Shown: piece by piece, positions 4,465 to 42,750 of the stretch
Numbering within the stretch: position 1 is the stretch's first letter
Layout: each line of letters starts with the position of its first letter
Source of the DNA: Phoronis australis
Lineage: Eukaryota; Animalia; Phoronida
Assembly: GCA_002633005.1 (NCBI GenBank)
Contig: NMRA01000017.1
Location: 12,463 to 76,462, forward strand
Reading direction: 5' to 3'
Length of the DNA stretch: 64,000 bases
Position numbers and translations under genes: made by a program
Notes under the pieces: generated by a model
What the model was told of the DNA's origin: nothing
The model's input: the letters and a program-made list of their open reading frames with translations, nothing else
Databases searched by the model: none

Positions 4465-4871
4465 TTACGTGTTATACATGTAGAACACAAGAAGTGCAGC
4501 CGCTATTGCCATTGTCATAGCCCTATCAGCCGTCACGACACCTGCCGTTCCTTTGCCAGTCACCCTGGTATAGCTGCAGTCACCAGTCGCGGTTTTGTTT
4601 ATTGAAGAAATATCGAATAAATATCTGTCCAAACTGTCTCCTCCTGTGAGTTTTTTCTTAGTATATTCCACACAGCTATCCACTAACAAAGTCTCTAGCC
4701 CTTTGAAGAAATCCATGCAGACGAGGATGCTCGCGCGTGGCAGGCTGTTAAACCACGTGTTATACTGACCCGTCTCTCTGTAAGTGCACGTGCTCACTCC
4801 CACGCGTTTATACGACTTACGACAGAGGTCATACTTGTTCTTATGGAGGGGATTGGTGACGTCATCTTCTG
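4465..4871 (-). CDS. Gene A (ZP-N/LDLa/GPI-type surface protein) exon 7: Cys-containing domain and hydrophobic GPI-type tail
   Basis: cattttcAG acceptor, phase 1; SEDDVTNP...STCTYRETGQYN...CMDFFKGL...MAIAAALLVFYMYNT*; homologous to gene B exon 29096-29496. Confidence 0.88.
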
Positions 4872-4969
4872 CTGAAAATGGTGTTTAATTCAATTACAAG
4901 CATAGGACCATGCTCAAAACGTCTACAACCAGTAAGCTATCATTTTGCATAGTCGGTCTTTGAATTTGG

Positions 4970-5330
4970 TTACGCTGTACTCTAGAAAATATCCAAATTT
5001 GTCTGACTTCAGCACGTTATATCTCAGAAATGGCTGATGGATTCATGTGAAACTTTCAGTACTATACTTCATGCACTGTTCCCCAAAATGTTGTTATGAT
5101 TTGTCCTTTTGTGTGAAAAACAATCAAAAATGGCATGGACCGAAAACTTGAACTTGAACATTTACTTATCGAATGAAAGTTGATCATGTCATTGATGCTA
5201 ACGCCGTATTGCGATGAATGTACCTTCGCACTTTTACTAAAACGGCATGGTCATGTGGCCCAATCACTGGAAGATTGAGAAAAAATGTTATGCGTTTTTA
5301 CATTGTCTAGATATTTATACTCGCGTAACT
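4970..5330 (+). mobile_element. Fragment of a dispersed Kolobok-type non-autonomous family (also at ~22650-23155, 31265-31660, 36017-36497, 45540-45675, 46268-46890)
   Basis: Shared core TATCTCAGAAATGGCTGAT..GATTC..ATGAAACTTTCAG; family ends GGTTATGTAGGAC/GTCCTACATAACC-TTAA are seen in other copies. Confidence 0.6.
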
Positions 5331-5733
5331 GCTTACATTGTTTCCCGTTGCGGGGCTTTAAAAAATCGATACCTTTGACGCAGGACATGGGTGTTTTTTA
5401 TTGGCATCACGTGACAGCACATTGAATTCTGTTACCTTGTATGCGCCTATTTAGACCCGTGCGCCGATATTTGAAGCTCAAGTAATACGTTTTACAATAA
5501 ACTTTTTCTCGACGTGTGTTGCCTAAGTGTGGTTTTACTCAAAGTTTCGTGAACAGAAGCATGCGCATTACTTTGGCTTCCGGCGCAGCTTCACATAATG
5601 GTGCAGTGCCTGGACGACAGTGCGCACGAGAGGGGCCTCCAATATTCTACTTTTGCATACATTTGCACACAATGAGTGAGTGAGTGAGTAAATTATATAC
5701 CGCATCACAGCGTACTCACTGGCTCATACTCAC

Positions 5734-5829
5734 AGGCCAGAAAGTCCTTCCGTAGGTAAGCGAAACCCCTGTATTCCAACCACTCGACCTTGCCATCTTT
5801 TTCACATTTCTCTATGTTGTAAGTACCAT
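5734..5829 (-). CDS. Gene A exon 6
   Basis: tttcAG / GTGAGT, phase 1-1; NGTYNIEKCEKDGKVEWLEYRGFAYLRKDFLA versus gene B GGYNIQVYKK...WIEYRGVSYFLKDQLS. Confidence 0.88.
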
Positions 5830-5917
5830 CTGAAATGAATTGGTCCAAGTATTGTAGGATAACATATCCCCGAATTTCACAACTGTTGTTATCATCATGT
5901 CTCACGGGTATGTAACA

Positions 5918-6554
5918 CATAGGCGGATTTAGGGCCCGCCCCCCCCCCTTGGCTGCCGCAAAAAAATAAAACAGTAAGAGCGTAGGGAAATGTTGAGTTT
6001 ATTAATTAATCCCGGTAATTAAAATTATACGAATGAAATAAGATTTAAATGTGTGCAGTTTTAGTGTNAAGAAAATTTACTTCATTTTTTAAAGAAAATG
6101 GAATCTGAGTGACGATGAAAAACAGAAGCTGCTGGAAAGATGTGTTTAATCGAAGCCTTAGTGAATCACTCAGAAACTCGCAATACTCTCTTTGTCAAAC
6201 CTTATCTTAAGACGATTTCCAAAGCAATCCCGTCATTATTGCCAACACGAAAAACGGATTTGGTCTTTTGGGCATTTGAAGACTATTTTAATTCCGACAA
6301 ATTTGTTAAGAATTGATGGCACAAAATATAAAACGTGTAATAAGCATTCCAAAAAGAAGTAGGTTTCGCGCGCAAACGCTGTGGACCATAAATAAGTAGG
6401 TCTCTTAGATAGAGATTTACAGTTAAGTCGTGGTGGTGTAGTGGTAACGCACGCGCATTCAATTCGCCAGGTCGTGAGTTCGAGTCTTAGGTTCTTGCAG
6501 TTTTTTCGCAAAAAGTTGCCCCCCCCCCCTTGTGATATCCTAGATCCGCCACTG
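5918..6554. mobile_element. hAT-like GC-rich MITE with a 6-bp TSD, carrying a tRNA-like segment
   Basis: TIR CATAGGCGGATTTAGG / CCTAGATCCGCCACTG; GTAACA duplicated at 5912-5917 and 6555-6560. Confidence 0.8.
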
Positions 6555-6764
6555 GTAACAGGTTATGTATTGTTTTCAATCGTGAGTTTGTAGTGCCGTA
6601 CACATGTCTTCGGGTGTATCAGACTAGTCAAGTATAGGTCGTCACGGCCCTCCAACCTTAGTAACGTTGTTATATGACGGCAGAGGAAGTCAGCGAAAAC
6701 GGCTCTTAAAGTCCAGGCCGCGTCCAAACTCCTTTTTCGTGTACCCCATCACTTGCCTACTTAC

Positions 6765-6923
6765 TTGGATTGGCATTACATCCAATTTCTCGCGAGTTTT
6801 TGTCGACACATCTCTCGACACCAGTCGTTGCGCCTGCGCATCTGACCATGGAGTTCATGCATTTATTTTTGTAGACGCAGAAGAACATGCCAGCGATACA
6901 CTCCCGAACAGTGCGGATGTCAG
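6765..6923 (-). CDS. Gene A exon 5: LDL-receptor class A-like 6-Cys repeat
   Basis: ttctAG / GTAAGT, phase 1-1; CIAGMFFCVYKNKCMNSMVRCAGATTGVERCVDKNSREIGC; 26/47 residues identical to gene B by hand count. Confidence 0.9.
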
Positions 6924-7412
6924 CTAGAACAAAATTAATTGTACATTTTCCATGTCGTCATCCACATCAAAACAGATTGTTGATTTATGTCGTTTCCAGT
7001 AGCGGTATCTTGAGAAGACCAAATGATAGGAATATGGAACATACGACATACAGCGGTTTATCATTCGCGCGCGAGAGCGTCTGTTGCTTGACCCAATTAC
7101 TAATTCTGGTGCACCAGACGGGCTAAACTGACCGGCAGAAAACAATCGATTTCTGTCATTAATGGACATTTCGGGGCGATGAACATTTTCGTGTGAATCG
7201 CCCAATTAGTCCTGCAGCGCGATGTTCTGGACTAGTCTGATTGCTAAATTAATGAAACTCACAGAAAGACCGAGCATAGTTAGACTACCTCATTATCTAT
7301 TTCAAAAGTGAGCGATCGAGTATTTCTTCTAGCCCTAGGTGTTGTTGGGAGTTCCTGGTTCTTCTGTGAAGACCTTAATGTCATGTAATAGGATGTCTTA
7401 AGTACCACTTAC

Positions 7413-7554
7413 CGAATGACACGGACTGTTGCCTTGGTGGCAGTTTGAAGTCGCACGTGACAATGAAATTTCTGTAACTACCTTTCGTCACAATGTTTGT
7501 TGACAGGTTGCCCATGTAAGCACTCATGTTGACAACAGCGACTTCTCCATTTCT
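7413..7554 (-). CDS. Gene A exon 4: second half of the ZP-N-like domain
   Basis: ttgtAG / GTAAGT, phase 0-1; RNGEVAVVNMSAYMGNLSTNIVTKGSYRNFIVTCDFKLPPRQQSVSF. Confidence 0.88.
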
Positions 7555-9922
7555 CTACAACATTTCACACGTGTCTTTGTCATTCGTGACCAGCACATAT
7601 GAGACTACAATAATGCATAACGTCATGACAACCCATTGTCGGGGATCGGAAACCCAACAAGCAGGTGATAGTTTTCAGAAAAAAATCTCCCTGTTTTGAA
7701 AGAACGGAAATTTTCCGGGAAAACGTCCGCGACATTAATGTGACATTCGGTACCTCAGTGTTGTCGCCCAGGCCGCAATATATGCCGAGTGTCACAATAC
7801 ATGCCGTTAACAACCCGGCACATATTCTCGCTCTCAGGGGGTGACGATATGTGTTGGGTGCGACAATTTACTTGTCACATTGTGGAGGCACATATTAACA
7901 TCCCTTACACTGAAGAGTCGTTTTTCACGAAGTCGCATTGTTGTGTACATGTGATCGCGCTGCTGTGGGTAGGCCTACGCGGTGACATGGGGTAATTCAA
8001 ACTTCAGTGAAGGATAGTCCCGGTACTATGAGATGGTCGATTCACGGACATGGATTGATGACCCAAATCTTGAGTAGAGGGATACCGAAAGTTTGAGGTA
8101 TAGTTCAAAACATGTTTGTCAAGGTCATCTTTGAGCAACATGGTTATTGTTAGGGCTCCCGTCTAGTGGCGCTGAAAAGCAACATGGCCGCGCCTGTGTA
8201 TGCTGTGGGTCCCTCAAAGTTGATGTTGCAAACGTTGCGGATAAAGGGTAGGCTTACTTTTCAACGTGCTTTGAGGGACCTGCACAGGGTTCAATAGCCC
8301 CTATAAGTCACACTGTAGTCCTGTAAAAAAAAATTTCCCTGTCTGCATTAAGCATCTATGTTTATTCTCGTCAATTTATTTCGTAAGAAAACAGAACTGA
8401 ACATACGTAGAGATAGCCATGTAACAGTCTTGGAACACTAACTAATCTGCACGTAAAGGGGTTGAGTGTGGGGATTGTTATACATCAGAGACATGGTACT
8501 CGCAGGAGGGAGTCTCTCAACATTCTTGGGTACACATGCAGGTGCCATATACTTTTGTCCGGGAGTGAGCCCCGAGACAGGCACACATGGCTGAGGTAAT
8601 AATACAATGATCTGTGTTTAAAATTTATTAGACAAAGTGATGTGTGGAGATTAAGTTATGCTCACATTTCTATATTTCTATTGTAATTTGCCACTTGCGC
8701 CGAGGCATTTTTCTCATTTGCTTGTCGATGAGCGATAATGATGTCGCTGTCGTTCTCTAATTCTTCCATTTTTGTATAGACAAACGGGTTTTCGCCCGGG
8801 TTTTCGGCACAAAAGTGTCTTTCCAATATTTTAAAAAGTTTGTATTTTCAAAGTTAAAAGTAAATATTTAGGTACAATTTCGCTTCGTATTCCGTATTTT
8901 GTCAGTTGTTCTGCGTCGACTACGCGCACATTTGGTTTACGATGGATCGTTAGCAAACCGCTGAATATCAGAACATTTCTCGTTGCACTGACCTTCCACT
9001 CAGAAAGCAATATTGTCCAATTTTGGAAGTTCACATCATATTTGTCCTTTTGTAAAGAAAAAATGAAAAACAACAGCTCACGAGCGCATCGTTGAATTTG
9101 TTATCTGTGAAAATGACATTTGGTCTACTTGTAAATGCTTTTCCTGTGGTTGAGCGAGGCATACTGCCACAGTGACGTCACAGTCGTGCATGTGCAGCAT
9201 GCGATATCTCTCAAAGTTGGACTTGAGTATCCCAGATATTAATGTTTGCAAAATCTACGCTCTCGCACACAAAGCTGACGTCAGGCGTGGTTATCATTAG
9301 GTGCGACCTCGTTTTTAGTTTTTTGGGCCTCCATTTGACTCTGGACCCGCCTGGCCATCTGGTAACATTGTGGGGCACCAATTTGTGTCGGTGTTCATCA
9401 TTGCAGCATATAATTTATTGCCACACTGGACAAACGTCACACAGGTGACAGTGCGTCTGTGTGTGTCGATGTAACGGCATATTGTCGCACTGGTGACAAT
9501 ATATGTTACAGCAGCGCCCCGCTTTGAAAGAGAGTCCAACATAGCGATACAAATGGGCTAATAATAGATTTTATGCACTGTTTGAAACCCTTTCAAATCC
9601 CGGCATTCAGCATTTTTGTGAAGAAGACAACGAAGAACCAAACTTTGACGATTGTCATTGACAACATTGACAATTTTGCTGAGAGGATGACACGTTTGAG
9701 CGTTTCATGAACAGTATATGAAACCTCACGTTCTTCTCTTGTCGCGCTTTTTATAACGTTTTGTTAATTTTCAAAGGTTTTACACCATCCTTTCCGGCCA
9801 GAATGTTGAACTATGGGAGAAAATCATTACTTCCGTTTCCGAGACCAACAAATGTCTTTCGAGTGATAAACGTGAAAAACGTTGTCTGGTTGCGTAGAAG
9901 CCGTTGATTGCATTCAACCTAC

Positions 9923-10140
9923 CTTCTCCACTACACCACACGTGTCAAAGAGTGGTTGGGTAATCACCAATGTCAAGGTGCTTTCGTGAGTTGCCACGCC
10001 TCCAGCTATGCACGGGTGATCTCGTCTTTCCATAGATCTGTTATAGCCGTCTGTCTCCAGTATTTTGTAACCTTCCCTCTTATCGTCTGTCATATATACC
10101 GTGATTTTCTTGTCGCTTATTGTCCCGCAAGCGTACGACA
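9923..10140 (-). CDS. Gene A exon 3: first half of the ZP-N-like domain
   Basis: ttccAG / GTAGGT, phase 1-0; VSYACGTISDKKITVYMTDD...HPCIAGGVATHESTLTLVITQPLFDTCGVVEK. Confidence 0.88.
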
Positions 10141-10809
10141 CTGGAATAACATCAAAATTTAAACTCATGGATCACAGTTATTGCACGATTTTATTGGAAC
10201 AAGATACCAAACCTCGTGTCTGCTCAAAAACACCAATAGAGGTGCGAAATGTCATTCCTTTCCTCTTTTATTAAAAGGAGTAATGCCTAGGTTCAGTCAA
10301 AGGCACTTTCTAACCCAACCCCGTCTCTCATTGGCTAATTGCAAACACGTAGCATCATGTAAAATTCGAAAACGTCGTCCTCGTTTGCAAAATGAAATAT
10401 AATGCCGGTTCAGTGAACGAAGAATTAATGAAATGTGTACTGGCACATACATGACAAGGAAAGTATTCCTTATCTATTTAACACCTGCCTGACAGTGCTG
10501 TGTTGAACATCTATGGTGATGACATAGGCTACAGCCGGTCTATTCGAAAACGTTGACTTAACTGGCGATTGTTTTTAACTATTGTAGGCCTAATCTGTCC
10601 TCCTCTCGGCCGTCGGATATTGGTTTTGTTGGTCAAACGATGAGTCGGTTGTAGAAATAATTAGCAACTCTGATCATTTTAAGGATTTAATTGAAATAAC
10701 TTAGTCTTGTAAGTTATTCATAACAAGGGCTAATTAACAGTTTAAATAGTAATCTCGGAGGGGACTTTGTGAAAACGTGGCCGACCGTGCCAAATACTGG
10801 ATTTTTACC

Positions 10810-10929
10810 CAGGGTCGCATCCAGGATTTTGAGTTACGGGGGATCAGGGCAGGGTATTAGCCAGGATTTTGCCAGTCAGACATTTTAGGGGGGCATGGCC
10901 CCCTTGGCCCCCATCTAAATCCACCACTG
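10810..10929 (-). mobile_element. Short hAT-like GC-rich MITE with 5-bp TSD TTACC
   Basis: CAGGG..GCATCCAG / CTAAATCCACCACTG ends; TTACC at 10805-10809 and 10930-10934; inverted relative of 20219-20380. Confidence 0.75.
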
Positions 10930-11300
10930 TTACCGACAATATCGGCACCATGTAATGCGCTCCAAAATTGTGGTTTTCAAGAAGAAAAAATGAGTTTGTG
11001 GCTACACTTTTGTTTACTCTTACCACCAAATTTAATATTCAAGATAGTCAACGAAAACGTGGATTCGTGAATTCTTGGTGGCATAGCGTTGATACTGGCA
11101 GCGCTTTCGTCACCTCATGAGGGCGCTGCGAAGGAAAATATTATACACCCCCCTACCCCCACCCACCATCCGGTCGACACCAGTTCGCGAGGCATCAACC
11201 CCTCTCGGTCACCACCCAGTTTAGGTCCGAGGTCGACTTACCGCCCTTCAGTACGCAGTTGACACTCGCTTTACCTCCGTCTGCACACACACCTCCCCTC

Positions 11301-20380: not shown

Positions 20381-20384
20381 GACG

Positions 20385-21395: not shown

Positions 21396-21420
21396 CTTTC
21401 AAGGAAAAGACTCTGGTTAC
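21396..21420 (-). CDS. Gene A exon 2: 25-nt micro-exon spanning the predicted signal peptide cleavage site
   Basis: ttttttcAG / GTAAGT, phase 0-1; VTRVFSLK; same length and phase as gene B 42088-42112. Confidence 0.75.
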
Positions 21421-23774: not shown

Positions 23775-23837
23775 CATTACAGTTAAGAGCACTGTGAAAC
23801 AAGTTATGACTAGCTTCTTTTGACTACAACGCTCCAT
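23775..23837 (-). CDS. Gene A first coding exon: signal peptide MERCSQKKLVITCFTVLLTVM
   Basis: tttcAG acceptor 4 nt before the ATG; ATG|GTAAGT donor, phase 0; hydrophobic core. A candidate 5' UTR exon donor (CAG|GTGAGT) lies at 24632. Confidence 0.75.
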
Positions 23838-26324
23838 TTTCCTGAAATTTGTAAACATCCATCAAGCTAGAATAATTTATACAGAAATATTTTTCCCACA
23901 GAGATACGGTGAATTGGCCATATATACTCGCATAATAGTAACCTGTTGAACTTGGTTGACCTTTCCTTTTACGAAATGACTTAAAAACACACTGCATGTA
24001 AAGAAAAATAAAGACGTGTTTCAAGTTAAGTGACAAACAATACTAGGGTGGATATAAAATAGTAAATGGGTCATCGTGAGAAAACGTTTTCAGGGTATGG
24101 CCTGCACCTGGTGACGATAGATGTTAGTGGCGTTTTTACCCTCCTAAGAGTTTTGCTCACCGTCGGCGCATCTTGCTGTAAGTGATCATGCTTCGTAGAG
24201 TGTATCATGAGTAAGACATATTAACCCAATTCCACCGGAAACGGAAGAATTTGTGGGATCAGTGGACACAAACTAAAATTTGAACAACTGATGGATTAAT
24301 AAAATGTAACTCACAGATATGTGAGGCACATTTATTTTAAATACAATTTCATAGACAATTACAATACCGTGTGCACGTTCATTCGATACGATGTTCGTCA
24401 GTTTGCATAGGACGTTGGCGTATATGGGGGAGAGCTCGGCTAGTTCGGCCCCATTTTCGAAAAAGTGGAAATTCAAGTCTCTTTCAGCTACTAGGTAAAA
24501 TCATTGAGGTTTTCTTGTTCTCGAGAATAAACATGGATATCTATTGCGAAATCTATGTACACGAAGAAGTAAGGGGTTGATCGTTATTCACATCAGTAAA
24601 GCCAAATCGCTATGAAATGATTAATACTCACCTGCAGTCAGTCGTCGTTTATCGGTAATAGTCTTACATGTACGTTTAAACGTCCCGTCCGTTGCCAAGC
24701 TTCATTTCACAAGAAAAAACTAACTTTTAGTACATGTGGATGGTCATAAACATAGGCTGTATTATCTGATAGTATGGTTCAACTCAGTCGTGTGCGGTAG
24801 ATAGCATCCTTGGGTGTTCACATTTTCACCTGTCGCGCTGTAAACCAAGCGGTCAATCGATATAAAACAGCAATTGCGAGTACAAGTTGACGTGCGTGTA
24901 AAATGACACATTGACTGTATTTATTATGCGACAAGTTTATTTATTTATTTTAAAACACCCGTAAGGGCGTTGTTATTTCTTCATGGGTCATTTAACTTCG
25001 TATCAAGCGTTGAGTCAAACGAGACATGTATTTTATTAGTGACAAAACTCGTTTGTCGTGTGTTTTGCACTGTTTCTCTTGTAGTGAAATGCGTACTTTG
25101 TTATAAAATAAGTTATATATCTAGTGTGGTTAGGTTTCTGTACTGATAACAAGCGCAAGCGCGTGCATCAGTACTTGCTATCAAGGAAACTATTCACGGG
25201 TTACTTTTTTGTCTGGTTACCAGTGCGATTTTATTTCCTGGTTTTATTTGTCACGATTGTGATATCTATTTTTGTAAACATGCTAATCAGCACGAGCGCG
25301 TATGCAGTTCACAATTCTCCAATTGTGTCGTTTCAGTACGGAGACTGAAGTGTACAGACTTAAAGTTATATACACAAAACTTTCATGTCGTGTTGGCACG
25401 GCGTTCCGCTACTTAAAAGTTGCGGGACGGGAGTAGTAAACAAGGCGTATAATTAATGTTAAAACAAATCACACTCTTTGATCCGCGTACGAAGAATCAC
25501 TATAATCCGCGTGACTTTGCGTTCCATAAAAATCAATTTTTCCCGCCATTGCTGCTACGTAACGCAAGGACGCGCCGCTTTGGGGATTTTCTGTACCCGG
25601 ATTAAAGATCAGAATTTTTGATGAATCAAATACGAAAAAACATGGATTAATGTACAATTGCCTCTTATTTCCGGGTCTCGCAACCAGTAACTTTAATACT
25701 TTGCTTTAACTCTCTCCAGTAGAAAACTTTTCATATTCATGACGCTCTCTAGTGTAATGAGAACACGAAAGTGAATTCCAGTTGATCCCGACTGGGATTT
25801 GGTGGACAGAACTTCAATTACTTCATAGTGATTCATTAATTTAAAAGCAGAGGAATAAAGTTCACTGCCATCCCCTCCCACTGTTGCTTTAAGTTCCCTA
25901 ATTTCTTTAACTTTTTGACACTAACTGGGATCGAAATTCTCCCGTTTTATTAGTCGCTGCCACTGACAGGCTTTGTCGCGGATAAGTGGAAAATGTATGG
26001 AACAAGATGTCCTTGTTCATTCATCCTTATTTCAAAAGGTTTGACTTTTTTCGCAAGACATTAGTACATACGACAGCACAGCAATGAAAATTTGTCGGCA
26101 TTATAATGACTGGAAAAGTGTTGACTAAATGTTTTTATACCGCATTACATGGGATCTGTAGGTGGCGCTGAATGATTGTCCACCAAAGATCTGATCGACG
26201 TCTAGTGGGTTAGTGAATTTCCCGTTTCTGACGTCCTCGATACACTTCGTTGGTGCAGCTTGGTAAGCAGACGTGCCTTTTATTTAAACTTTAGGGTGTA
26301 CAAAGCCACACATAGCCTTACACC

Positions 26325-26755: not shown

Positions 26756-27425
26756 ATGGCGCGGCTATTTCGAAAGTTGCCTATCCAGGGCAGTCTGATC
26801 TCGTATCAAGTGTCCCTAGGTTAACGGTACAGTAGAGTAAAGTTTATTTAAAGTGCAGTTTAAGTTATAAACAAGTGAGCATGAGAACAAGTGACGGTTT
26901 CCGACGATGAGATTATGCACAAATATTTACAAACATAGCTTAGAGCCACAAGAGGAGATTCCGCTACCTATAGAGGGAGTACACGTATGAGATGAATTGA
27001 GAGAACATCCCACAGAGGTCGCAACTGTTACAGTGGAAGAGTCGTGAAGTATTCATGGATATCTGACTGAAAACTTCTCAGTGCACTGATGACTCTGTCA
27101 TTGTTTATGTACTATGGCTTTGAATAATTGGAGATGTCTTAAATTCATAGAAGTAAGACAAATGAACTTGTTGAGACTCTCATGAATACTTTTATTGGCA
27201 ACCAGGATTTGCTTACGTTTTTCCCAAAAGAAACGGGAATCCCTGAAAAACAACAAGGGAATAACGATTAACTTACACGTTTTGCTTATCGAACTATGAT
27301 TTTACTTTTGTTTGCACTTGCACTTAAACCAAAATGTGTATACTTAGAGATACATGTCCTTTGCATTCACCAATTTAGAACATAATCTAATTTTCAAGTT
27401 GATCCCTGCAGTCCTAGTTGATTAA

Positions 27426-27635
27426 AAGGATACTAAACCCGGTTTTGGCCTATTAACGGATATTAAAAACGACGTTCCCATCGAATTGTTTGAAACAGAA
27501 TAATTCTCTGTAACCCTCGACAGCCCTCAAAGGTTTGGAGGAAAATTTGAAAACTGGTTCCAATGTCTGCTAAACGGGCAAGCGTTACCTACGCTTTCAA
27601 AGAATTGCTCGCCGGCAAATGTGGGGAAAGACCAC
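27426..27635. mobile_element. Partial copy of the Kolobok-type MITE family seen at 48700-49601 (inverted, without the Penelope insert)
   Basis: TTAA-AAGGATACTAAACCC start; colinear with the reverse complement of 48860-48940 plus 49477-49601. Confidence 0.7.
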
Positions 27636-29095
27636 CTACTAAGAACCACAAAATCCAATCTCAGAGATAGGGAGTATGAACCTTTGGCTATTTCCAAATT
27701 GTATCTTTCAAGATTGACGCCAATACCTGCATCGGCAGCTGAAAAAACGACGATTGGTTTAAATCATCAAGACAGGGTTTATAATTATTTTAAGAACGAG
27801 TGCCTTCGGAAGTGACGTTCGCGGCCCGAATGATTTCCTGCCACATTTCAGTGTGAAGATTCATTGTGGACATCTGTTGATTGCATATTCTAACAAACTG
27901 TCGTATTTATTTGTCTTCGACGAGTATTCAGATTCACGAAGAATCCTAGATTGAACTAGAACTCAGTTGAGAGGCACTGTTTGATCTGAAGTGAGACGGC
28001 GACAACCAAAACGTATCACGTATATAGTGAAGCTGTGCTGGTTGTTGGCCTTGGGCCCTGCGGTGACTGTTCACACGCATGGGTGACGGCATCGCGGCCT
28101 CGAATCACTACAGTGGCAGCAGCTGGTGACGCTTCGGGTTTCAAAAAGCACTACCAGTAGGTGGCGGTAGAGTTGAGAATGGAACTACCGACACTGTGAC
28201 ATTCTTCTTCAGAACAGGTTGAGTGGGTATCTTCGTGATCTCTGCGTAAATGTCTTTTCGCAATCGGACGGTAACAAATGCTTGCCCCATACACGAAAGT
28301 TTTGCACCGTTTTAGTCGTAACGTGAACGGTCAACGCTGCGTTCTTAACACGAACCAGCCAACTCCGACGTATTTTCGCATCCACTGAAAACTTGTGAAA
28401 AGAACTCCTACAATGTTCGATAGCTCAGTGATGCTTGCATCCTTGTACGCAATAACTTCCAGACATACTGAATAATACTCAGAGAAAGGCAAATAACATT
28501 CTAACTTATTACAAGATGCCGTACAAAATGACACATCCGATATCAAGCACTGTTCAAAGTGTAGGGTATGTAAACAACGATGCAGGGGTACGACGTCCTG
28601 AGAACATCATTTCCGGAGTGGCGCAAGCATACTTTATCAGAACGAGGGGGTTGTTTAACTTGAAAGCTTACCTTGGATGACCAGAAAATCGTAATTGAAT
28701 CAAAATGCGATTACCTTCCCCAAAATAAATGACACAGTCTGATAAAGCTAACTTGTTTTTGTTATTTAATTTTTACCACTTCGAAATAATGGTTTCGTCC
28801 TTGTACAAGAAAAACAGGCACAAAACATTTTTAATTTTTACGAATATCGTGTGAAATTCTTTGCAAAATGAATTGCTAGTGTGGTAAAAATCTATTGTAA
28901 CCAAATGGCGTCGTTTTCGATATCTCCACTAGATTCAAATTCTTATAGTCTTAGTAGGTTCGAGATTATGTGTCCGTTTTCTTTTACGAGTGTGAAGTGT
29001 ACAGAACTCTGGGAACCAGTCTCAGAGTACTCTGGTATCTCGTACTCTTGGGGAACAGATCAGACATCTCTAACCCCTCTGTAGCAAACTTGGTT

Positions 29096-29496
29096 CTATT
29101 TTAAACTATAAACGAGTCCCACAGCAAACGAAATAACAAGCAATGTCGCGTGGCTGTTTAAATCGTCTGCCCTCGAAAACGCAGAAAAAGCACAATCAGA
29201 TCTACTTTTTTCGCTATCTTTCAGGCACACCTGGTGCACGTATTCTCTTCGTTTCGCATTTGTTGTCGCTTTACTCGTCATGTCCTTGCACATGTCAAGA
29301 AGGACAGAAAGTAATCCCTTGAAGTAATCGAGGCAGGAACTGCCCGTGGCTTTGTTGTCAGTGATAAGTGAATTGAAGTCGGCATTGAACTGACCCACAG
29401 TGTTGTACTTGCACGTGCTTGTGCCCGGGCTCGTGTAATTCACCCGGGCTTCGCTGTATTTCACTACAAGCGGTGGGAATCTTGGGTTCTCTTCGG
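29096..29496 (-). CDS. Gene B (paralog of gene A) exon 7: Cys-containing domain and GPI-type tail
   Basis: cattgcAG acceptor, phase 1; ...TSTCKYNTVGQFN...CLDYFKGLLSVLLDMC...SDCAF...ATLLVISFAVGLVYSLK*. Confidence 0.88.
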
Positions 29497-29559
29497 CTGC
29501 AATGAGATGATAAAAGTTGACAAGGTCTAACTGACTATTAGCAACGACAGACCTATTTA

Positions 29560-29970: not shown

Positions 29971-30231
29971 TTTCTCGTGAGACAACACCTGGAAGTCCCC
30001 TGGCGGCCATATTGTTTCGGTAGCTGAAGCTAACACCCCCGCGCGTGACAAGCAAGTCCCATGAGCTTGGTCACAAGCAAAAACCAACTGTCAGCTCATC
30101 TCAAGTCTGGAAATTAGCTCCAGTTTGAGCAGGGAGAGAAATCAGATCGATTATATTACGGTAATAGGTTTAAATCAAAAGCGGTTCTAACACAAATGCG
30201 GGTTTATTGCCCAATTTATACAAGCACTTAC

Positions 30232-30333
30232 TCGACAGTTGGTCTTTAAGAAAATACGAAACTCCGCGGTACTCTATCCAAGTGATGTTCGGGTTACCGA
30301 ACTTTTTATATACTTGAATGTTGTACCCTCCAG
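30232..30333 (-). CDS. Gene B exon 6
   Basis: tttcAG / GTAAGT, phase 1-1; AGGYNIQVYKKFGNPNITWIEYRGVSYFLKDQLS. Confidence 0.88.
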
Positions 30334-30454
30334 CTGAAACAAATTAAGTTGGTTAGGTCAAAAAAGCATGATGGCTCTGGGGGGGTTAAGTCTTAAAACT
30401 GTTTGGGTGACGCACCCACTTCATAAAAGCTGAAGAAGGATTTAGCTAAGTAAT

Positions 30455-31145
30455 TAGAGAGGTTTCACAAAGCGACGTGAACGTGAATTATCACGCATAC
30501 TGAAGTGCACGCAAAAATGGGTTTTGCAAGAGCTAAATGTTTACGTGAACGTGAAAGTAAACGTGAACTGAATAACTGAGCTCGGGTGTCCAGTTATTGT
30601 AGGCATAGTACATGTCAGCTAGTCACTCTGCCAATGCAACTTCTTTTACGTGAAAAACGTCGTTTCTATGAACTTCTGCGAGAAATGGTTAAGTCTTAGA
30701 ATGCGCAATTTATTTGAAGTTTAAAATAAATAAATGCATGTAAAATAAGCAAGTAAAAAATTTAACAACACAAAATTATATGTGTTAAAACTCCATTCTA
30801 GTTCCATGATATCCAGCGAACCCCTGTAGAATAAGGATTTTTGAAAAGGTACTTTCTTGCAAATAAACTTGAAGAGCATTCATAGACAAAAAATTGTGTT
30901 CATTTTATACTGAAGCAAAGAAGAAAGATTGAGAACCCTATCAAAATAAAAATCATTTCGATGTCTCACCAAATAAGAAATGAAAAGGGCCGCGGGTTTC
31001 TCGTTTAAAGCAACGCGATTCTCTCTGTATTCGCGTACAATACTGGAACACAATCGGGATTACGTCACAGCCAACAATGGCATGTATGACGTGGTATTAT
31101 AAATGCGTGATAATTCGCGTTCACATCACTTTGCATCACAGTCTA
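30455..31145. mobile_element. Non-autonomous TIR element with TAG...CTA termini
   Basis: CAAAGCGACGTGAACGTGAATTATCACGCAT at the left is inverted to ATGCGTGATAATTCGCGTTCACATCACTTTG at the right; no clear TSD. Confidence 0.7.
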
Positions 31146-31834
31146 GAAATAATTTACAGAAATTGTCGCAGTAACTAGCAGTTACGTGTATATTTTTAGT
31201 GACATTTCCTTATTTTTCTGAAGCAGTTATGTGGAGCGTAAGACCAAATTCCTGACCAAGTTATGAGGTTATGTAGAACGTTCTTGACAAGTTTGCGGAT
31301 TTAGCCAAATATGTAGAAAACTGAATATTTTGAGTCGGTGAAAATGTTTACTTTCTGAAAGTAGAAAGCTGAAAGAGTGTGATTTTTAACTTTTTACCAA
31401 TATGCCATTAATTGGGTCACGTGACCATGTCTCTTTTAGTAAAATGTAGCAAAAAGAAAGGTTCATCGCAAAACAATTGTATCAATTACATGCTAGAATT
31501 TAATTTCGTGAAAAAGTCTTATTTTAATAGCCCCTCGTGTAACGGTGAAACAGCGTTTTGGAGAACAGCTCTTAAAACGTAGTATCTTAAAGTTTCATTT
31601 GAAACAGATGAGACATTTTGAAACACGGTGACCCAAAGTTAGCCAAACTAAGTGGAAATTGTGCCCACATTTTGAGAACCAGTTCGATGCCCGTTATTCA
31701 ATAGAAAAACTAGTTCCCAAAATGCGGTCACGTAATATCCTAATATTACTCACAATTTTACGGTCCTACATAAGCTACAGAATTGATTTGCCCAAAAGGG
31801 TTACGTCAGCCTTAGGTGTCGAATCAAAACTTAC

Positions 31835-31990
31835 CTTCATTTGCGTCGCAGCCCATCTCTTCATTGTTTGCGTTGACACATCTGTCTGGAACAACGCTTT
31901 TACCAGCACATCTGTACTGCGAGTTCATGCATTTATTTTTCTCTTGACAGAAGAATTCTCCAACCTTGCACTGCCTGTAGGTGGAGAAAC
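31835..31990 (-). CDS. Gene B exon 5: LDLa-like repeat
   Basis: cgtcAG / GTAAGT, phase 1-1; CKVGEFFCQEKNKCMNSQYRCAGKSVVPDRCVNANNEEMGC. Confidence 0.9.
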
Positions 31991-32266
31991 CTGACGGGAG
32001 GAAGGTGTGTGTACAATGAAATATCAAGATTGCGAAACTGTTACACTCGGTATACACCACCACGTACACCACTGACCTCAAGGTAAACAACTTTTACAGC
32101 GCATGCGCAACTGATTATGGAGTCCATAACTTGAAGCCAATAAAAATGCCGAGCTGCAGATTTGCTGTTTTTCTTGTATTGTCAACGGTCCTACTCTTAT
32201 CATCGTTACGTGATAAATTACAGGTAGAGGATCGAGTGTGAAAGGGAAAGAAGACTTCATACTTAC

Positions 32267-32390
32267 CGAAGACAACTGACTGTTCTCGGGGTTTGGAGAA
32301 ATCGCAGCTCAAAGTAAAGAAGCGGGAATTTTGGTGGAGCAACACCGTATCGTTTGTATGCACTGATATGTTAACTCTCACTATGTCTCC
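32267..32390 (-). CDS. Gene B exon 4: second half of the ZP-N-like domain
   Basis: ttacAG / GTAAGT, phase 0-1; GDIVRVNISVHTNDTVLLHQNSRFFTLSCDFSKPREQSVVF. Confidence 0.88.
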
Positions 32391-33128
32391 CTGTAACAAT
32401 CCAACCAGTAATAATTTGATGGACATGGATGATGACTTGAGTTGGGTGTGAATATGAAAGAGACGGTAATCCATGTGAACAAAAACCTTAAAAAGTGATT
32501 ATAACAGCGTCACACGACAGATAAACCAGAAAAATCCTATAGATGGCGCCATCAGCTCTCACACATAAAGTAACAAGGATGTTACCAATGATCAGCTGTA
32601 CCATATTTATCTCATTGGATGTTACAGCCTCGTCCCGAAGTCGTAAGATGGCGCTGATCGGTTTTATTTATTTGAGGCTTGTTGACGGAGGAGAACTATG
32701 ATGTTTTACGGAAATCGCAAGAATTCCACGAGTGTTATTGTGTACATGACCTCTAAAATTTGTTTAGTATAATACAAGAAGTCAAAATGAGCAGTTTTAA
32801 TGCAGCACTTTAGGTTTACTGCTCATTGAAAACGTGTTTGAAGGTTTCTTGTGTCGCTCTTGTCAGTGGTGAACGTCGTTCAGAAAAGATATCTTCTCAC
32901 CACGTGCTATCAAGCAGCCACGGTGACAAAACGCGTACAAGAATAGTTGTGTAGGTAATTCAAAGGGACTTATGAAATTATCTCTTAGAAGTAAACAATC
33001 CGTTGCGAAGTGTTTGGAGTTCTATTTAAAGTCTGTTATTTTCTTTTTGTGGCGATTTGTGAAAAATGATCCTGCAGCGGCCACATGCCGTCCGACTCAG
33101 TGGAAGGCTGGAATGGCTGATACTGCAC

Positions 33129-33363
33129 CAGAGGCGGATCTACGGGGGGTCAAGTTCCGAGCTGGCAGGGGGTTCAAACCCCCCTCTCCGGACAGGATTG
33201 AAAATAAAAACTGAAATAAATTTCGCCAGAAAAATGAAATCCGCTTCTAAAAACCACAAAAATGTTACATGGGAGAGAGAAACCTTCCCTCCGCTCGGTG
33301 CAACGCGACTCGGATTCACTCGAATCCTAAGCCCCCCTTACTGAAAACGTAGATCTGCCACTG
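33129..33363. mobile_element. hAT-like GC-rich MITE with 5-bp TSD TGCAC
   Basis: TIR CAGAGGCGGATCTACG / CGTAGATCTGCCACTG; TGCAC at 33124-33128 and 33364-33368. Confidence 0.8.
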
Positions 33364-33734
33364 TGCACTGTTTAAAATTGAACATTACCGAGACGTCCGG
33401 GCTTCCGGCCTCAAATCAGACTGCATCCTTATTGTATGAATCCTACTTTCCAATGACGTGGTTAGGTTCTATTCGTCAACGCGGTGATCGCACGTGATTG
33501 ATCACAATACCAGCATTTCGCAAAATATTGATATGATGCAAACTACTCGCCAGACGGCAGATAGGACGCTACTTTTAAGCGGCTGATCTGCCCTCGTGTA
33601 AAAATTGCAAATGTGAACACGGCATCAGCAGTTCTGGTCTCCCTCGCCTCAATTTCCAAGAAAAAGAAACAGACCAGAACCATTGTGCTATTTTCTTTGA
33701 TAGAATTATCTTCCGCCGGTTCGAGGCACCATAG

Positions 33735-35058
33735 GAAGATAAACCAGGAGGTATGCGGAGACGAAGCGAGATACGGAAGAAAAGTAGTTGAACTGAAGAT
33801 GAACCAGGAGGTGTGCGGAGAGGAAGTGAGATACGTAAAAGAAGTAGTTGAACTGAAGATGAACCAGGAGGTGTGCGGAGACGAAGCGAGATAAGGAAGA
33901 CAAGAGTTGAACTGAAGATGAACCAAGAGGTGTGCGGAGAGGAAGCGAGATAAGGAATAGAAGTCGCAGAGTTGAACTGAGGATGAACCAGGAGGTGTGC
34001 AGAGACGAAGTGAGATACGGAAGGGAAGTAGTTGAACTGAAGATGAACCAGGAGGTGTGCGGAGACGAAGCGAGATACTGAAGAGAAGTAGTTGAACTGA
34101 AGATGAACCAAGAGGTGTGCGGAGACGAAGCGAGATACGAAAGAGAAGTAGTTGAACTGTAGATGAACCAGGAGGTGTGCGAAGACGACGCGAGATACGG
34201 AAGAAAATTAGTTGAACTAAGATGAACCAAGAGGTGTGCGGAGACGAAGCGAGATACGAAAGAGCAGTAGTTGAACTGTAGATGAACCAGGAGGTGTGCG
34301 AAGACGACGCGAGATACGGAAGAAAATTAGTTGAACTAAGATGAACCAGGACGGGTGCGGAGACGAAGCGAGATGCGGAAGAGGCGTAGTTGAACTGAAG
34401 ATGAACCAAGAGGTGTGCGGAGACGAAGCGAGATACAGAAGAGAAGTAGTTGAACTGAAGATGAACCAAGAGGTGTGCGGAGACGAAGCGAGATACGAAA
34501 GAGAAGTAGTTGAACTGTAGATGAACCAGGAGGTGTGCGAAGACGACGCGAGATACGGAAGAAAATTAGTTGAACTAAGATGAACCAGGACGGGTGCGGA
34601 GACGAAGCGAGATGCGGAAGAGGCGTAGTTGAACTGAAGATGAACCAAGAGGTGTGCGGAGACGAAGCGAGATACAGAAGAGAAGTAGTTGAACTGAAGA
34701 TGAACCAAGAGGTGTGCGGAGACGAAGCGAGATACGAAAGAGAAGTAGTTGAACTGTAGATGAACCAGGAGGTGTGCGAAGACGACGCGAGATACGGAAG
34801 AGAATTAGTTGAACTAAGATGAACCAGGACGTGTGCGGAGACGAAGCGAGATGCGGAAGAGACGTAGTTGAACTGAAGATGAACCAAGAGGTGTGCGGAG
34901 ACGAAGCGAGATACGACAGAGAAGTAGTTGAACTGTAGATGAACCAGGAGGTGTGCGGAGACGACGCTAGATACGGAAGAGAAGTAGTTGAACTGTAGAT
35001 GAACCATGAGGTGTGCGGAGACGACGCGAGATACGAAAGAGAAGTAGTTGAACTGAAG
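33735..35058. repeat. 60-bp purine-rich minisatellite, ~22 copies, with a 239-bp higher-order repeat, in intron 3 of gene B
   Basis: Unit GAAGATGAACCAGGAGGTGTGCGGAGACGAAGCGAGATACGGAAGAGAAGTAGTTGAACT; 59-bp variants at ~34217, 34336, 34575, 34814. Confidence 0.97.
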
Positions 35059-36697: not shown

Positions 36698-36909
36698 CTG
36701 CACTTTAAAGTTACACTTGACAAAATCTTTTTCATAGATAGTCAGCACAACACTGTTATCGTGTGAAGCTGTGCCCTCAGCACTGCAGATGGCGTGGTGA
36801 GTTGCATTAGAATAGCCTTGGGTTCCAATGGTAGTTAATCCTTCATTTTTATCGTCCACGAGCTTCACTGTCATAGACTTCGAGTGAGTCGAACCACAAG
36901 CGTAACTGA
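36698..36909 (-). CDS. Gene B exon 3: first half of the ZP-N-like domain
   Basis: tttacAG / GTATTT, phase 1-0; ISYACGSTHSKSMTVKLVDD...AICSAEGTASHDNSVVLTIYEKDFVKCNFKVQ. Confidence 0.88.
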
Positions 36910-39030: not shown

Positions 39031-41149
39031 GTTGGCGTTAATTACTGAGCGTTCTGTTTCAAAATGAATTAATCTCACCCTGACCAATACTTATATAAAA
39101 CTGAAACAAAGTCTGTCTCATTAGATGCAATTTGTAATGCCTTTGGAGTGTTCGTGAGTGCAAATGATTTGAGAAGCCAGCAATGAATAAATCACTGCGT
39201 TACCGGCTTTAGGTGCAATAAAGCTAATTGACGGGACACCTAGGCCGTGTGAGTTCATGCTAATTTAGTGTTGCTGGCAGAAACTGTTGTGAAACAACTC
39301 GATTTCCATCCCACGGTCAGGTGTTAGGGGAATCTTTATTTACATTTACATTACTCAAATAATGATTGTCAATGTACAACTTCTAGCCTGACGTTGCTGT
39401 GGCCAAAGCGGAACCTGAATTTGCGACCCCCGACGAGTAAGTAGATTTGCAGTTTCGTGGCTAATTCACCAACATAATCAGGTGCACATTACTTTGGCTC
39501 ACTAATATAATATTTTCTTGACTGGAAGTTTAGTTTCCACTGAACTTTGTCTGGTTTATATTCGTGATGTCTGATCAGTTTCCGAGCCACTGGCGGGGAT
39601 AACGAGTCAATCCGGCCGGTCGCGACGGACCTTATCATCGGGCTCCGAGCCACTGACCAGGCTAACAAGCGTTCTGTGTTTAGAACTCAAAAAATCACAA
39701 GTTTAAACAACACAGATCTAGGTTCTCCTGTCTGTATCTCACGGAAAATGCAGATCCCAAACTCCTGCTACGGGCCTTAGTGGCCTGCCGAACTTTGTAG
39801 TCTACGGTGTGTCCAAATACCAATAAATCCGTAACATCGAAATAAAACAACACGTTTTTACAAGAAATCGGTGTATTTTTAATGGTTTTACATCGAAGTT
39901 TGATGATTTATTGGTGTTAAACGATGACTTCAAGCGATAAGCTGACACCAGTAACCCGTGTTGTGAACTGCGGAACAGACTGCGTGGGAAACCGATGACG
40001 TTATTGGATAATTTCAACACCTCCGTCCGCCGTCAGGTGTCAGGTAACGCAACCGTACGTGTCGTTATGGAGTAAAACTACTCGATCTAAATTGATACAA
40101 ATTAGGTTGTTTTTTGGGTGGCATGCTCCTTTAAATTTGATATGTAAATTGATCTCCTCACGGGCTATCTACAATGCGGGACTGGTTTCTCCACTTACGA
40201 CTTACCCATCTCCAATTATTCAGGATTGACTGCTTAGATGACTGTTCTTTCATTGACTGATTCCTTAAATGTGCATTTTATGTTTTATTATTTAGGTTGG
40301 TGTGACAGACGTTGGGCCGTGGTTTTTGGTATTCTTAGTTTCGTCGTCGACCTCACCTTTAAATATTTATTCGATTTCGCCAAGTATCGTTGCTCAGAAC
40401 GCTTTCATTTTTTTAAATTACACATTTTGTATTGATCCCGATAATGCTTTTAAACAGCATCCTCATGATAATAGAATACAAAATTTCACCGACTCTGCGT
40501 TTACTTTTTTATTCATGTTTCCTGGTTCATACATGATGACGTCAAACATGAGTCCACTGGCTTTTATCACCTGCCCTCTCCTTGGCTGTTTCACTTTTTT
40601 CTACTCTTCGTCTACCATCTTGAATACCTTATTAGGTACAGTAAACATACCAATTTGCGTGCGTTTCTTTTGTAGGAAGAGGGGAGAGTGCACCCTCTGG
40701 ACAATCCAATATTTTTCGAACAATATCGACTGGGTTGCTAAAGATTGCATTTATTCCCTCTTCCAGCATATTGTCACAAACTCGTTCGTTTTCTTCCTGA
40801 GAACCACTTAATTTATGCTCAATTTTGAGGTAAACTGTAAGATGCCGTTGGTCTTGGTTAATATCCGCTAGTTCGCAAGGTCAACCACGTTTTCACGAAG
40901 CCCATCCCAGGTTCAATGTTAGTAAGCCGTTAGCCCTGGATATAAAGAGAATTCAAATATTTCAGTTATTTCAGTTGTCTTTAAGGTTTTATTCTCACTA
41001 GATTAACATGTTCAGACTAGGATAAAGAGTCGTTAACTATTATTCCCACAAACTTATAAATGTTTTAACAAAAGTTAGGTTTGACTGTTTATAGTAAACT
41101 ACGGAAATAATTTCTGTTTTTTTCTAAGGGGAGTGGAATATCATGTCCG

Positions 41150-41600
41150 AAAAAGTTGTTTTTTTAAAGTTTAACGACCATGCGAATGTGTCTGCTAGCT
41201 GTTTATTGATTTTGAGTTTCGTTGACTGAAGGTTTTGTAAACGAAGGTGTGTGTATAACATAGATATCATCAGCATACATGATAATGGTCCAAGAGAAGT
41301 GAATTTGTCGACGTCGATTAATACGTAAGTAAGAAAAAGAGGGGGACCAGGGCTAGATTTTTATGGCACGCCTGTGATGATAGTTGATTTTGGGAGGGGT
41401 AATCGTCAAATAAACATATTGCTGTAGATTGGTTAACTATTTTTTGAAGAATAAATGCTCCACTCCAGTTGTACCGAAAGATGAAAGTTTCTGGCACGAG
41501 ACCACGGTCTATTATGTCAAAGGCACTTGAAAGTCAAGATTCAAGGGAGAAAAATTAACTTCATAAAAGTTCAGAAAGCTCATGTTTAGTTGCACCTGCT
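41150..41600 (-). mobile_element. Decayed CR1/L2 LINE reverse-transcriptase fragment
   Basis: Minus strand: SAFDIID...TGVP..SSPGPPLFLTY...IMYADDIYVI (YADD catalytic motif). Confidence 0.75.
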
Positions 41601-42087
41601 GCCCTTTTCAGTCGCGTGATTTCAGCGAGGGTCCGTTTTATGAAATTGTACTGAAAATGACTTCAAAATGATCTATCTGTCTGTTGAATCAAAACTTGGG
41701 TATGAGTAACCAGGTATCTTAACTGCGATCCACAGATGCAAGAATCTTGTGAGTAAATCTGGTGTGGAAATATGTTTAGTTTGTAATGAAAGGCGATATC
41801 TCGCGACGTCTTACGTGATCTTGCGTTTTCGCAAGGTTTTCGTGTTAACAGAAGGCAACCTTGATCATTAGATAAATTATCAACATTTTGCCCGAACGGG
41901 GATCTGCACTAAAATACCTTTGCTGACAGCCCAAATCACACAGTTTTATCAAATGCGTACCCCGTGACACAACGAACAATCGAAACAATATATCCACCAT
42001 TTTAAATAATTTCCGTTCAAGCGAAGAAAAGACAAGAAATTGTGACCCGAGGACATCCGTGTTTTTTCAATACAGAATCATACTTAC

Positions 42088-42112
42088 TTTTTACGCCAGT
42101 GACAGTCTTGGC
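42088..42112 (-). CDS. Gene B exon 2: 25-nt micro-exon
   Basis: tattttttcAG / GTAAGT, phase 0-1; AKTVTGVK. Confidence 0.8.
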
Positions 42113-42699
42113 CTGAAAAAATAAAAAAGTCAACAAACTGTTGATTAATGAAATAGTCACACTTCTATCGTACATAAACTTGACATATCTATGCTCACCT
42201 CAGGGATCATTTTGGGGAGAGCCAAAGGGCTTTTGGCGCAAACAATCAGTGACGCCACGGAGTGCGTTCTTGTCACTGAAGCCGAGAAATCATATTGAGT
42301 GTGGAATGAGTTGGGGTCCATTTAATCACGGGCGGTGGTTTAAATAAAACGTTTATAACGTCTGTACAACCACAAAAACATGCCAGGGCACCCCGATATG
42401 CATACACGGTAGAAAAAGTTGCTGACTCATAAGTTTTCCAAATCGACCCATTGAAGGTTCTGCGTGTTAACTGACCAACATCGACGTTTTTTTTATCTCG
42501 AACTGAACCCTGAGTTGTAACGTCAACATTTGAGCGTTGGGCAGCATAGTCGACCACTAATTATTTCTAAATAATGCAGCAACTTGATTGTAGTGAAACT
42601 TCTTAAGTTTTATGTACAGAAATCATGAAGTTCTTGGAATGTCATACTATTCGGAGATGATGAGCCCGCCAACTGATAATACCGCCATGGCAAACTTAC

Positions 42700-42750
42700 T
42701 ATGTAAAGTACAGCGACAAGCAAAACTAACGTAGACTGGCGAAGTGTCAT
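42700..42750 (-). CDS. Gene B first coding exon: signal peptide MTLRQSTLVLLVAVLYI
   Basis: tcttcAG|CC-ATG; ATA|GTAAGT donor, phase 0; hydrophobic core. Confidence 0.8.

What the first reader, a model, noticed from the sequence alone, without database searches (positions are those of the whole stretch)
4465..42750. Tandem pair of genes encoding an unusual single ZP-N + LDLa-like + Cys-domain + GPI surface protein
Seen: two 7-exon minus-strand genes splice with canonical GT-AG sites and identical intron phases (0,1,0,1,1,1) into open frames of 369 and 356 aa. The exons are pairwise homologous and none is complete in the ORF track. Each has a signal peptide, a ~105-aa beta-rich 4-Cys module (SYAC..C..(T/K)C..CDF), a 6-Cys LDLa-like module, a Cys-containing C-terminal domain and a hydrophobic terminus with no cytoplasmic tail. 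Established: ZP-N has a 4-Cys pattern, polymerises or binds gamete ligands (abalone VERL repeats), and usually pairs with ZP-C. Inference: this is a ZP-C-less, GPI-anchored, divergent paralog family whose architecture I do not recognise. It is a candidate gamete-recognition, matrix or biomineralisation surface receptor.
Basis: partly seen in the sequence, partly recalled or inferred. Interest (0 to 1): 0.8.

Follow-up and report, generated by a model that had tools for sequence, protein, structure and literature searches.

The report
Orphan pair of ZP-like surface proteins
Two neighbouring, spliced and expressed animal genes encode related proteins for which no relative was found; they are predicted to be lipid-anchored at the cell surface, with a likely egg-coat-type (ZP-N) head and an LDL-receptor-like module missing most of its calcium-binding residues, and they likely tether outside matrix to the membrane rather than build filaments.

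Summary
Both models rebuild as described: 356 and 369 aa, GT-AG introns, phases 0,1,0,1,1,1, 39% identical. RNA supports 6 of 6 coding junctions of the lower gene (two through one contig only) and 3 of 3 tested in the upper gene. The lower gene has an extra non-coding first exon. The upper gene is over 100-fold deeper in one of three raw-read runs, where the lower gene is weaker.

The LDLa-like module is supported (E 0.004 to megalin, six Cys), but both copies have lost most of the calcium cage. ZP-N is plausible, not proven: Cys spacing (37/24/34; 39/24/39) is close to chicken ZP1-N1 (37/21/34), but the strand-F Tyr is missing and single-exon folds were uninformative. No ZP-C was detected. 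GPI anchoring is read from the tail by eye.

No homologue appeared in three word searches or a scan of 1.84 billion representatives, all with single exons. ZP-N-only proteins and ZP+LDLa proteins are in print; this combination was not found. The scan had not noted it on other DNA. Nothing here points to gametes or biomineral. Verdict: real orphan paralogue pair, new variant of a known kind, moderate interest.

The parts
42700..42750 (-). Gene A coding exon 1: start codon and hydrophobic signal-peptide-like stretch
42088..42112 (-). Gene A exon 2 (25 nt), end of predicted signal peptide
36698..36909 (-). Gene A exon 3: first part of ZP-N-like module (Cys30, 67, 91)
32267..32390 (-). Gene A exon 4: end of ZP-N-like module (Cys125)
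   Evidence: E4/5 junction 154 reads in X4
31835..31990 (-). Gene A exon 5: six-Cys LDLa-like module, calcium cage degenerate
   Evidence: both junctions in RNA
30232..30333 (-). Gene A exon 6: start of unassigned C-terminal domain
29096..29496 (-). Gene A exon 7, coding part: unassigned Cys domain (5 Cys) and GPI-signal-like tail
27252..29095 (-). Gene A 3' UTR, about 1.85 kb
   Evidence: X1 contig and stranded X4 reads; AATAAA at 27196
24632..24857 (-).
   Evidence: joint 23840/24631 in the X1 contig and in 8, 6 and 2 reads
23775..23841 (-). Gene B first coding exon (ATG at 23837), signal-peptide-like
21396..21420 (-). Gene B exon 2 (25 nt)
   Evidence: loose end at 10142
9923..10140 (-). 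Gene B exon 3: first part of ZP-N-like module (Cys34, 73, 97)
7413..7554 (-). Gene B exon 4: end of ZP-N-like module (Cys136)
6765..6923 (-). Gene B exon 5: six-Cys LDLa-like module, calcium cage degenerate
5734..5829 (-). Gene B exon 6
4465..4871 (-). Gene B exon 7, coding part: unassigned Cys domain and GPI-signal-like tail; second acceptor at 4868

Best explanation
These are two old, expressed paralogous genes whose products are predicted to be GPI-anchored surface glycoproteins that likely hold a single ZP-N-type, immunoglobulin-like head away from the membrane to bind an extracellular-matrix partner, and so would tether or cap matrix at the cell surface rather than polymerise. Shown: the genes, their splicing, their unequal expression across runs, the Cys patterns and the loss of most calcium-cage residues. 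Inferred: signal cleavage at about the end of exon 2; a GPI anchor near Ser331 (A) or Gly342 (B); a ZP-N fold for exons 3-4; a disulfide-held, calcium-free role for exon 5; a stalk or second binding role for exons 6-7. Guessed: the partner (most simply a ZP-module filament of the apical matrix) and a division of labour between tissues.
For: Gene structure and RNA. Constraint after an old duplication: dN 0.72, dS 2.57 near saturation, ratio about 0.28, and only three short intron matches between the two loci. Hydrophobic stretches at both ends only, no residues for a cytoplasmic tail, small-residue omega candidates with a short spacer, and 5 N-glycosylation sequons in each. Cys spacing of exons 3-4 is 37/24/34 and 39/24/39, against 37/21/34 for chicken ZP1-N1, read from the Cys numbers in PMC6626044. 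Four Cys placed at random in 112 residues come that close in 0.18% of 200,000 draws, and within a broad ZP-N window in 0.5% (windows set after seeing the data). No Pfam ZP family hit exons 6-7. Both ZP-N and ZP-C are needed for ZP filaments, and isolated ZP-N proteins are proposed to attach to growing filament ends (PMC7737619).
Against: The ZP-N strand-F Tyr (PMC6626044) has no counterpart: the residue nine after Cys3 is Val in A and Glu in B, and A has no Tyr between Cys3 and Cys4. No Pfam or PDB sequence hit links exon 3 or exon 4 to any ZP-N, though half-domains are weak queries. No partner, tissue or location is known. The GPI call used a hand rule, not a trained predictor. Isolated ZP-N can form filaments in vitro (PMC1479692).
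Confidence: 0.4

Rival explanations
1. GPI-anchored co-receptor or accessory subunit: the head and the LDLa-like module present a ligand to, or tune, a signalling receptor or ion channel, in the way the single-LDLa protein NRAP-1 gates NMDA receptors.
For: Small size, one LDLa-like module followed by an unassigned, partly helix-patterned domain, no cytoplasmic tail, and run-specific expression. NRAP-1 is a secreted protein with one LDLa plus a novel helical domain (PMC11531325). The LDLa exon is the most conserved part (52% against 38% overall).
Against: NRAP-1 needs its calcium site, which is degenerate here. No sequence link to NRAP-1 or any co-receptor family appeared.
Confidence: 0.2
2. 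Gamete-recognition protein: the isolated ZP-N head binds a partner on the other gamete, as the isolated ZP-N repeats of ZP2 and VERL do.
For: Isolated ZP-N repeats regulate sperm binding (PMC6626044). Amphioxus egg-coat ZP proteins carry LDLa (PMC3543715). Gene A is 112-132-fold deeper in one of three runs. In the rows shown, 3 of 5 coding differences between RNA and window in gene B change a residue (57 rows were not shown).
Against: The tissues of the runs are not known. Gene B is expressed in 4 of 4 runs. There is one head, not a repeat array. The paralogue comparison shows constraint, and five differences are too few to mean anything.
Confidence: 0.15
3. The N-terminal module is not ZP-N but another small disulfide-held beta-sandwich, and the proteins are generic lineage-specific surface antigens or adhesins.
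For: Missing strand-F Tyr; no profile hit to ZP-N.
Against: Four conserved Cys at ZP-N-like spacing in both copies, the first at the predicted mature start and the last in a terminal hydrophobic strand followed by an aromatic residue.
Confidence: 0.2
4. Self-polymerising matrix subunit that is shed from its anchor and stacks through ZP-N; or a biomineral matrix protein.
For: ZP-N alone formed filaments as a fusion in vitro (PMC1479692). A basic cluster sits at the same place before the tail in both proteins (residues 305-307 in A, 306-308 in B) and could be a cleavage site.
Against: Native filaments need ZP-C (PMC7737619), and none was detected. The basic cluster is not an RxxR furin site. Both proteins are net basic and the LDLa has lost its acidic cage, unlike acidic mineral-binding proteins (own knowledge).
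Confidence: 0.08

Closest known systems
ZP-N-only proteins: PLAC1, OOSP1-3, Drosophila Papillote and CG16798, C. elegans F55A4.10 (PMC1479692)
   Same: Signal peptide, a single four-Cys module of about 90-105 aa, and no ZP-C.
   Different: Here the module is followed by an LDLa-like module, an unassigned Cys domain and a GPI-like tail. No sequence link was detected, and the fold is unproven.
Isolated N-terminal ZP-N domains: chicken ZP1-N1 (PDB 6GF6), ZP2-N1, abalone VERL repeats (PMC6626044)
   Same: Cys spacing 37/24/34 (A) against 37/21/34; position at the mature N-terminus.
   Different: No strand-F Tyr, no repeats, and no C-terminal ZP module.
Amphioxus egg-coat proteins BbZP2-5 (PMC3543715)
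   Same: ZP-type and LDLa-type modules in one secreted invertebrate protein.
   Different: BbZPs have a full C-terminal ZP module and a vWFA domain; here there is a ZP-N-like head first, no ZP-C and no vWFA.
LDLa (complement-type) repeats of megalin/LRP2 (2I1P), CD320 and LDLR
   Same: All six Cys align; best E 0.0042.
   Different: The Asp after Cys4 is Ala and the Asp before Cys5 is Arg in both genes; DxSDE is replaced; the Cys4-Cys5 loop is about four residues longer than in the megalin repeat.
Uromodulin and alpha-tectorin (GPI-anchored ZP-module proteins; PMC7737619, PMC13361971, listing of PMC6881170)
   Same: Predicted GPI anchor on a ZP-type extracellular protein.
   Different: They have ZP-C and a cleavable propeptide and form filaments; these parts were not detected here.

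Membership tests
ZP-N domain | Four conserved Cys over about 90-105 residues at ZP-N spacing | tested here: met
   A 30/67/91/125, B 34/73/97/136; chicken ZP1-N1 32/69/90/124 (PMC6626044)
ZP-N domain | Disulfides 1-4 and 2-3 | not testable with these tools
   Needs mass spectrometry or a confident model of the spliced domain
ZP-N domain | Tyr in strand F next to Cys4 | tested here: not met
   By sequence offset: Val (A) or Glu (B) nine after Cys3; no Tyr shared between Cys3 and Cys4. The register is not confirmed by a structure.
ZP-N domain | Ig-like fold with E' strand | tested here: inconclusive
ZP-N domain | Profile match to a ZP-N family or solved ZP-N chain | tested here: inconclusive
   No hit with exon 3 or exon 4 alone; the whole domain was not scanned
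Full ZP-module proteins | ZP-C domain after ZP-N | tested here: not met
   No Pfam ZP hit on exons 6-7 at E up to 1 or 10, no PDB ZP hit, and an LDLa-like module directly follows the head
LDLa repeat | Six Cys in about 40 residues at LDLa spacing | tested here: met
   Gaps 6,5,6,9,9 in both genes; megalin repeat E 0.0042, and 7 of 9 listed PDB hits are LDLa-bearing chains; Pfam PF00057 E 0.064 for A only, under the cut-off
LDLa repeat | Acidic calcium cage with DxSDE motif (PMC7605860) | tested here: not met
   Only the last Glu is kept in both genes; A has NEE and B has SRE where SDE stands; the two upstream Asp are Ala and Arg
GPI-anchored proteins | N-terminal signal plus C-terminal small-residue omega site, spacer and hydrophobic tail with no cytoplasmic part | tested here: met
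   Hydropathy and hand rule; no trained predictor was available
GPI-anchored proteins | Anchor attached in cells (PI-PLC release) | not testable with these tools
   Bench test
NRAP-1-like proteins | Calcium-binding LDLa with DxY/FDE motif and no anchor (PMC11531325) | tested here: not met
   Motif absent, plus an extra N-terminal module and a hydrophobic tail

The most novel reading that the evidence does not exclude
A lineage-specific family in which ZP-C has been replaced by a calcium-free LDLa and a domain of new fold, making a GPI-tethered, single-head ZP-N protein that caps or anchors ZP filaments (or receives a gamete ligand) at the membrane. The two paralogues would serve different tissues and give a compact test of what isolated ZP-N domains do.
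Probability: 0.2. Interest if true: 0.7.

Novelty: new variant of a known kind. Interest (0 to 1): 0.45.

Why it matters
PMC7737619 states that the role of isolated ZP-N domains in non-egg-coat proteins is an open question and suggests that they cap growing ZP filaments. A small, membrane-tethered, one-head example with a paralogue of different expression would be a clean object for that test. The calcium-free LDLa-like module kept in both copies, and the 140-residue domain with no detected relative, may be structural novelties. If the head is not ZP-N, this is an ordinary lineage-specific surface protein pair of modest interest.

Tried and rejected
Homologue searches, all with single exons: A exon 7 against proteins of 232-2000 aa, 0 of 276 candidates; the exon 5 pair, 0 of 26; the exon 3 pair, 0 of 79; B exon 7 by phmmer against 1.84 billion representatives, 0 at E 0.001. 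The word searches are weak evidence of absence. Exons 4 and 6 were not searched this way.

ESM Atlas: B exon 3 gave no usable hit. A exon 7 gave two unnamed, mostly mollusc clusters at 0.76 and 0.75, below what shuffled proteins often reach; a lead only.

Metagenome scan: one locus, L001, from 269 pattern matches; it lies in an off-frame reading of a bacterial sulfur-metabolism gene region and was rejected as chance.

PDB sequence hits of exon 3 to proteasome alpha (E 0.84), exon 4 to a glycosyl hydrolase (E 0.0017, two short stretches) and exon 7 to NR5A zinc fingers (E 0.034) were rejected as chance: they are short, lack the matching Cys pattern and make no sense for a secreted protein.

No whole genome is held, so family size outside the window is unknown; tblastn found no third copy inside it. 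No RNA holder was listed by index; the evidence comes from laying the runs. A longer first exon for B from the ATG at 23858 was rejected because RNA places the acceptor at 23841. Exons 6-7 as a hidden ZP-C were considered and rejected: no profile hit, and a helix-like stretch between two conserved Cys.

Literature searches for the combination found nothing relevant (open-licence library only).
Full report
OBSERVATION. Self-comparison of the window showed five homologous exon pairs on the minus strand, and a scan for signal-like and micro-exons gave the rest. Gene A: 42750-42700, 42112-42088, 36909-36698, 32390-32267, 31990-31835, 30333-30232, 29496-29096, 356 aa. Gene B: 23837-23775, 21420-21396, 10140-9923, 7554-7413, 6923-6765, 5829-5734, 4871-4465, 369 aa. 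All 12 introns are GT-AG with phases 0,1,0,1,1,1. The proteins are 38.8% identical over 312 columns, E 5e-67, and no third copy lies in the window.

EXPRESSION. Four public runs (at most four samples, two studies; tissues not given) were laid on 20400-33400 and 3000-11000. For gene A, 3 of 6 junctions were covered and all 3 were seen, with 154, 103 and 114 reads in X4 and 0-5 in X2 and X3, on the expected strand. Depth over the last exon was 207.7 in X4 against 1.57 and 1.86, from 11-13 million records per run. For gene B all 6 coding junctions have support. Four have raw reads (E1/2 8/9/2, with a short side of 21 letters; E4/5 22/33/0; E5/6 20/17/0; E6/7 14/15/6 in X2/X3/X4). E3/4 has only an X1 contig, and E2/3 only that contig's loose end. 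The contig's numbering puts exon 5 at 679, as the model predicts. RNA adds a non-coding first exon to B, a second acceptor at its last exon and a long 3' UTR to A. The paralogues are expressed unequally: A high in X4, B higher in X2 and X3.

EVOLUTION. Between the paralogues dN is 0.72 and dS 2.57 (near saturation), a ratio of about 0.28; the LDLa exon is the best kept part at 52% identity. The introns share only three short matches. This is an old duplication under constraint. Five coding differences between RNA and window in B, from the rows shown (57 rows were not shown), split 3 replacing and 2 silent, too few to interpret.

ENDS. Each protein has one hydrophobic stretch at the start and one at the very end. 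A hand rule finds small-residue omega candidates followed by a short spacer and a hydrophobic tail of about 16 residues, best at Ser331 in A and Gly342 in B; each has five N-glycosylation sequons. A GPI anchor is therefore predicted, without a trained predictor.

EXON 5. A profile of the two copies finds a megalin LDLa repeat at E 0.0042 with all six Cys aligned; 7 of 9 listed hits are LDLa-bearing chains. Pfam gives PF00057 at E 0.064 for A only. LDLa modules are defined also by an acidic calcium cage with a DxSDE motif (PMC7605860, passages; PMC11531325, passages). Both copies replace the Asp after Cys4 with Ala and the Asp before Cys5 with Arg, and keep only the last Glu of the motif. So the module is LDLa-like in its disulfide frame but likely binds no calcium.

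EXONS 3-4. The four Cys are spaced 37/24/34 in A and 39/24/39 in B. Chicken ZP1-N1 has Cys 32, 69, 90 and 124, that is 37/21/34 (PMC6626044, passages). Random placement gives such a fit in 0.18% of draws, or 0.5% for a broad window; the windows were set after the fact. Against this, the strand-F Tyr that the same paper lists as a ZP-N feature has no counterpart, and neither half-domain hits a ZP family or structure. The whole domain spans an intron and was not folded or scanned; the exon-3 model was too poor to use. I put a ZP-N-like fold at about 70%. I call the module ZP-N-like and do not file it as a ZP-N member.

EXONS 6-7. About 140 residues with four Cys shared by both copies. No Pfam, PDB, word-index or full HMMER hit explains them. 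ZP-C was not detected there.

WHAT IS KNOWN. ZP-N without ZP-C is an established class: PLAC1, OOSP1-3, Papillote, CG16798 and others (PMC1479692, abstract and passages). ZP proteins with LDLa are known from the amphioxus egg coat, with vWFA and a full ZP module (PMC3543715, passages), and a 2026 review mentions LDL-receptor domains as ZP add-ons (PMC13361971, passages). The two ZP-N disulfides are described for nematodes in PMC7456536 (passages). Four searches for this combination gave one irrelevant paper and three blanks in an open-licence library; no supplements were read. The scan's earlier notes hold no look-alike sequence and one unrelated full-ZP finding. Two notes on this genome call the organism an invertebrate, one of them likely marine; I did not test that.

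MECHANISM. [quoted passage not shown] With no ZP-C, no RxxR site before the tail and no cytoplasmic tail, these proteins are best read as anchored binding heads: secreted, GPI-linked, presenting one Ig-like head to a matrix partner, with the two copies used in different tissues (0.4). Rivals are a co-receptor or channel accessory protein (0.2), a non-ZP beta-sandwich antigen (0.2), gamete recognition (0.15), and a shed polymer or mineral matrix protein (0.08). The genes, splicing, expression contrast and Cys patterns are shown; anchor and fold are inferred; the partner is a guess.

VERDICT. A real, expressed pair with no detected relative and an architecture I could not find in print, built from known kinds of parts plus one unassigned domain. 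New variant of a known kind; interest 0.45. Folding the spliced head is the step that would move the score most.

Noticed in passing
window 1371-1721 (+): Exon of a methyltransferase gene (Pfam MTS, E 9e-6; NPPF motif; METTL5-like from recall), converging on gene B.
   Followed up: partly
   Followed up: partly
window 16344-17905 and 18509-20104: A 1.6-kb segment present twice at 96.7% on either side of a 603-N gap: likely two alleles assembled in tandem, or a recent duplication.
   Followed up: partly
window 33735-35058: 60-bp minisatellite, 22 copies, in intron 3 of gene A. One plus-strand frame of the unit reads as an open 20-residue repeat, but stops and shifts limit open runs to about 60 aa.
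   Followed up: partly
window 4868-4871: Tandem acceptor at the last exon of gene B, used both ways (14 and 10 reads in X2; 15 and 2 in X3), giving isoforms one residue apart.
   Followed up: yes
window 31902-31921 and 6848-6867 (approximate): The only exact match of 12 nt or more between the two coding sequences is a 20-nt stretch in the LDLa exon, where synonymous divergence is also lower (dS 1.0 against 2.6): strong constraint or an old local conversion.
   Followed up: no
genes A and B, exons 6-7: B has two extra Cys in the C-terminal domain (211, 251; a likely private disulfide); A has one extra, unpaired Cys (314) that could allow covalent dimers.
   Followed up: no
window 49127-49480 (-): GIY-YIG-like stretch (E 1.6e-4, just under the Pfam cut-off), probably a retroelement remnant.
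   Followed up: no
window 51406-52212 (+): 268-aa open stretch with no Pfam hit; it looks like a transposon remnant (impression only).
   Followed up: no
window 6765-7554, run X4: In X4, gene B exons 4-5 have almost no depth while exons 3 and 7 do; this may be read filtering, a divergent allele or skipping.
   Followed up: no
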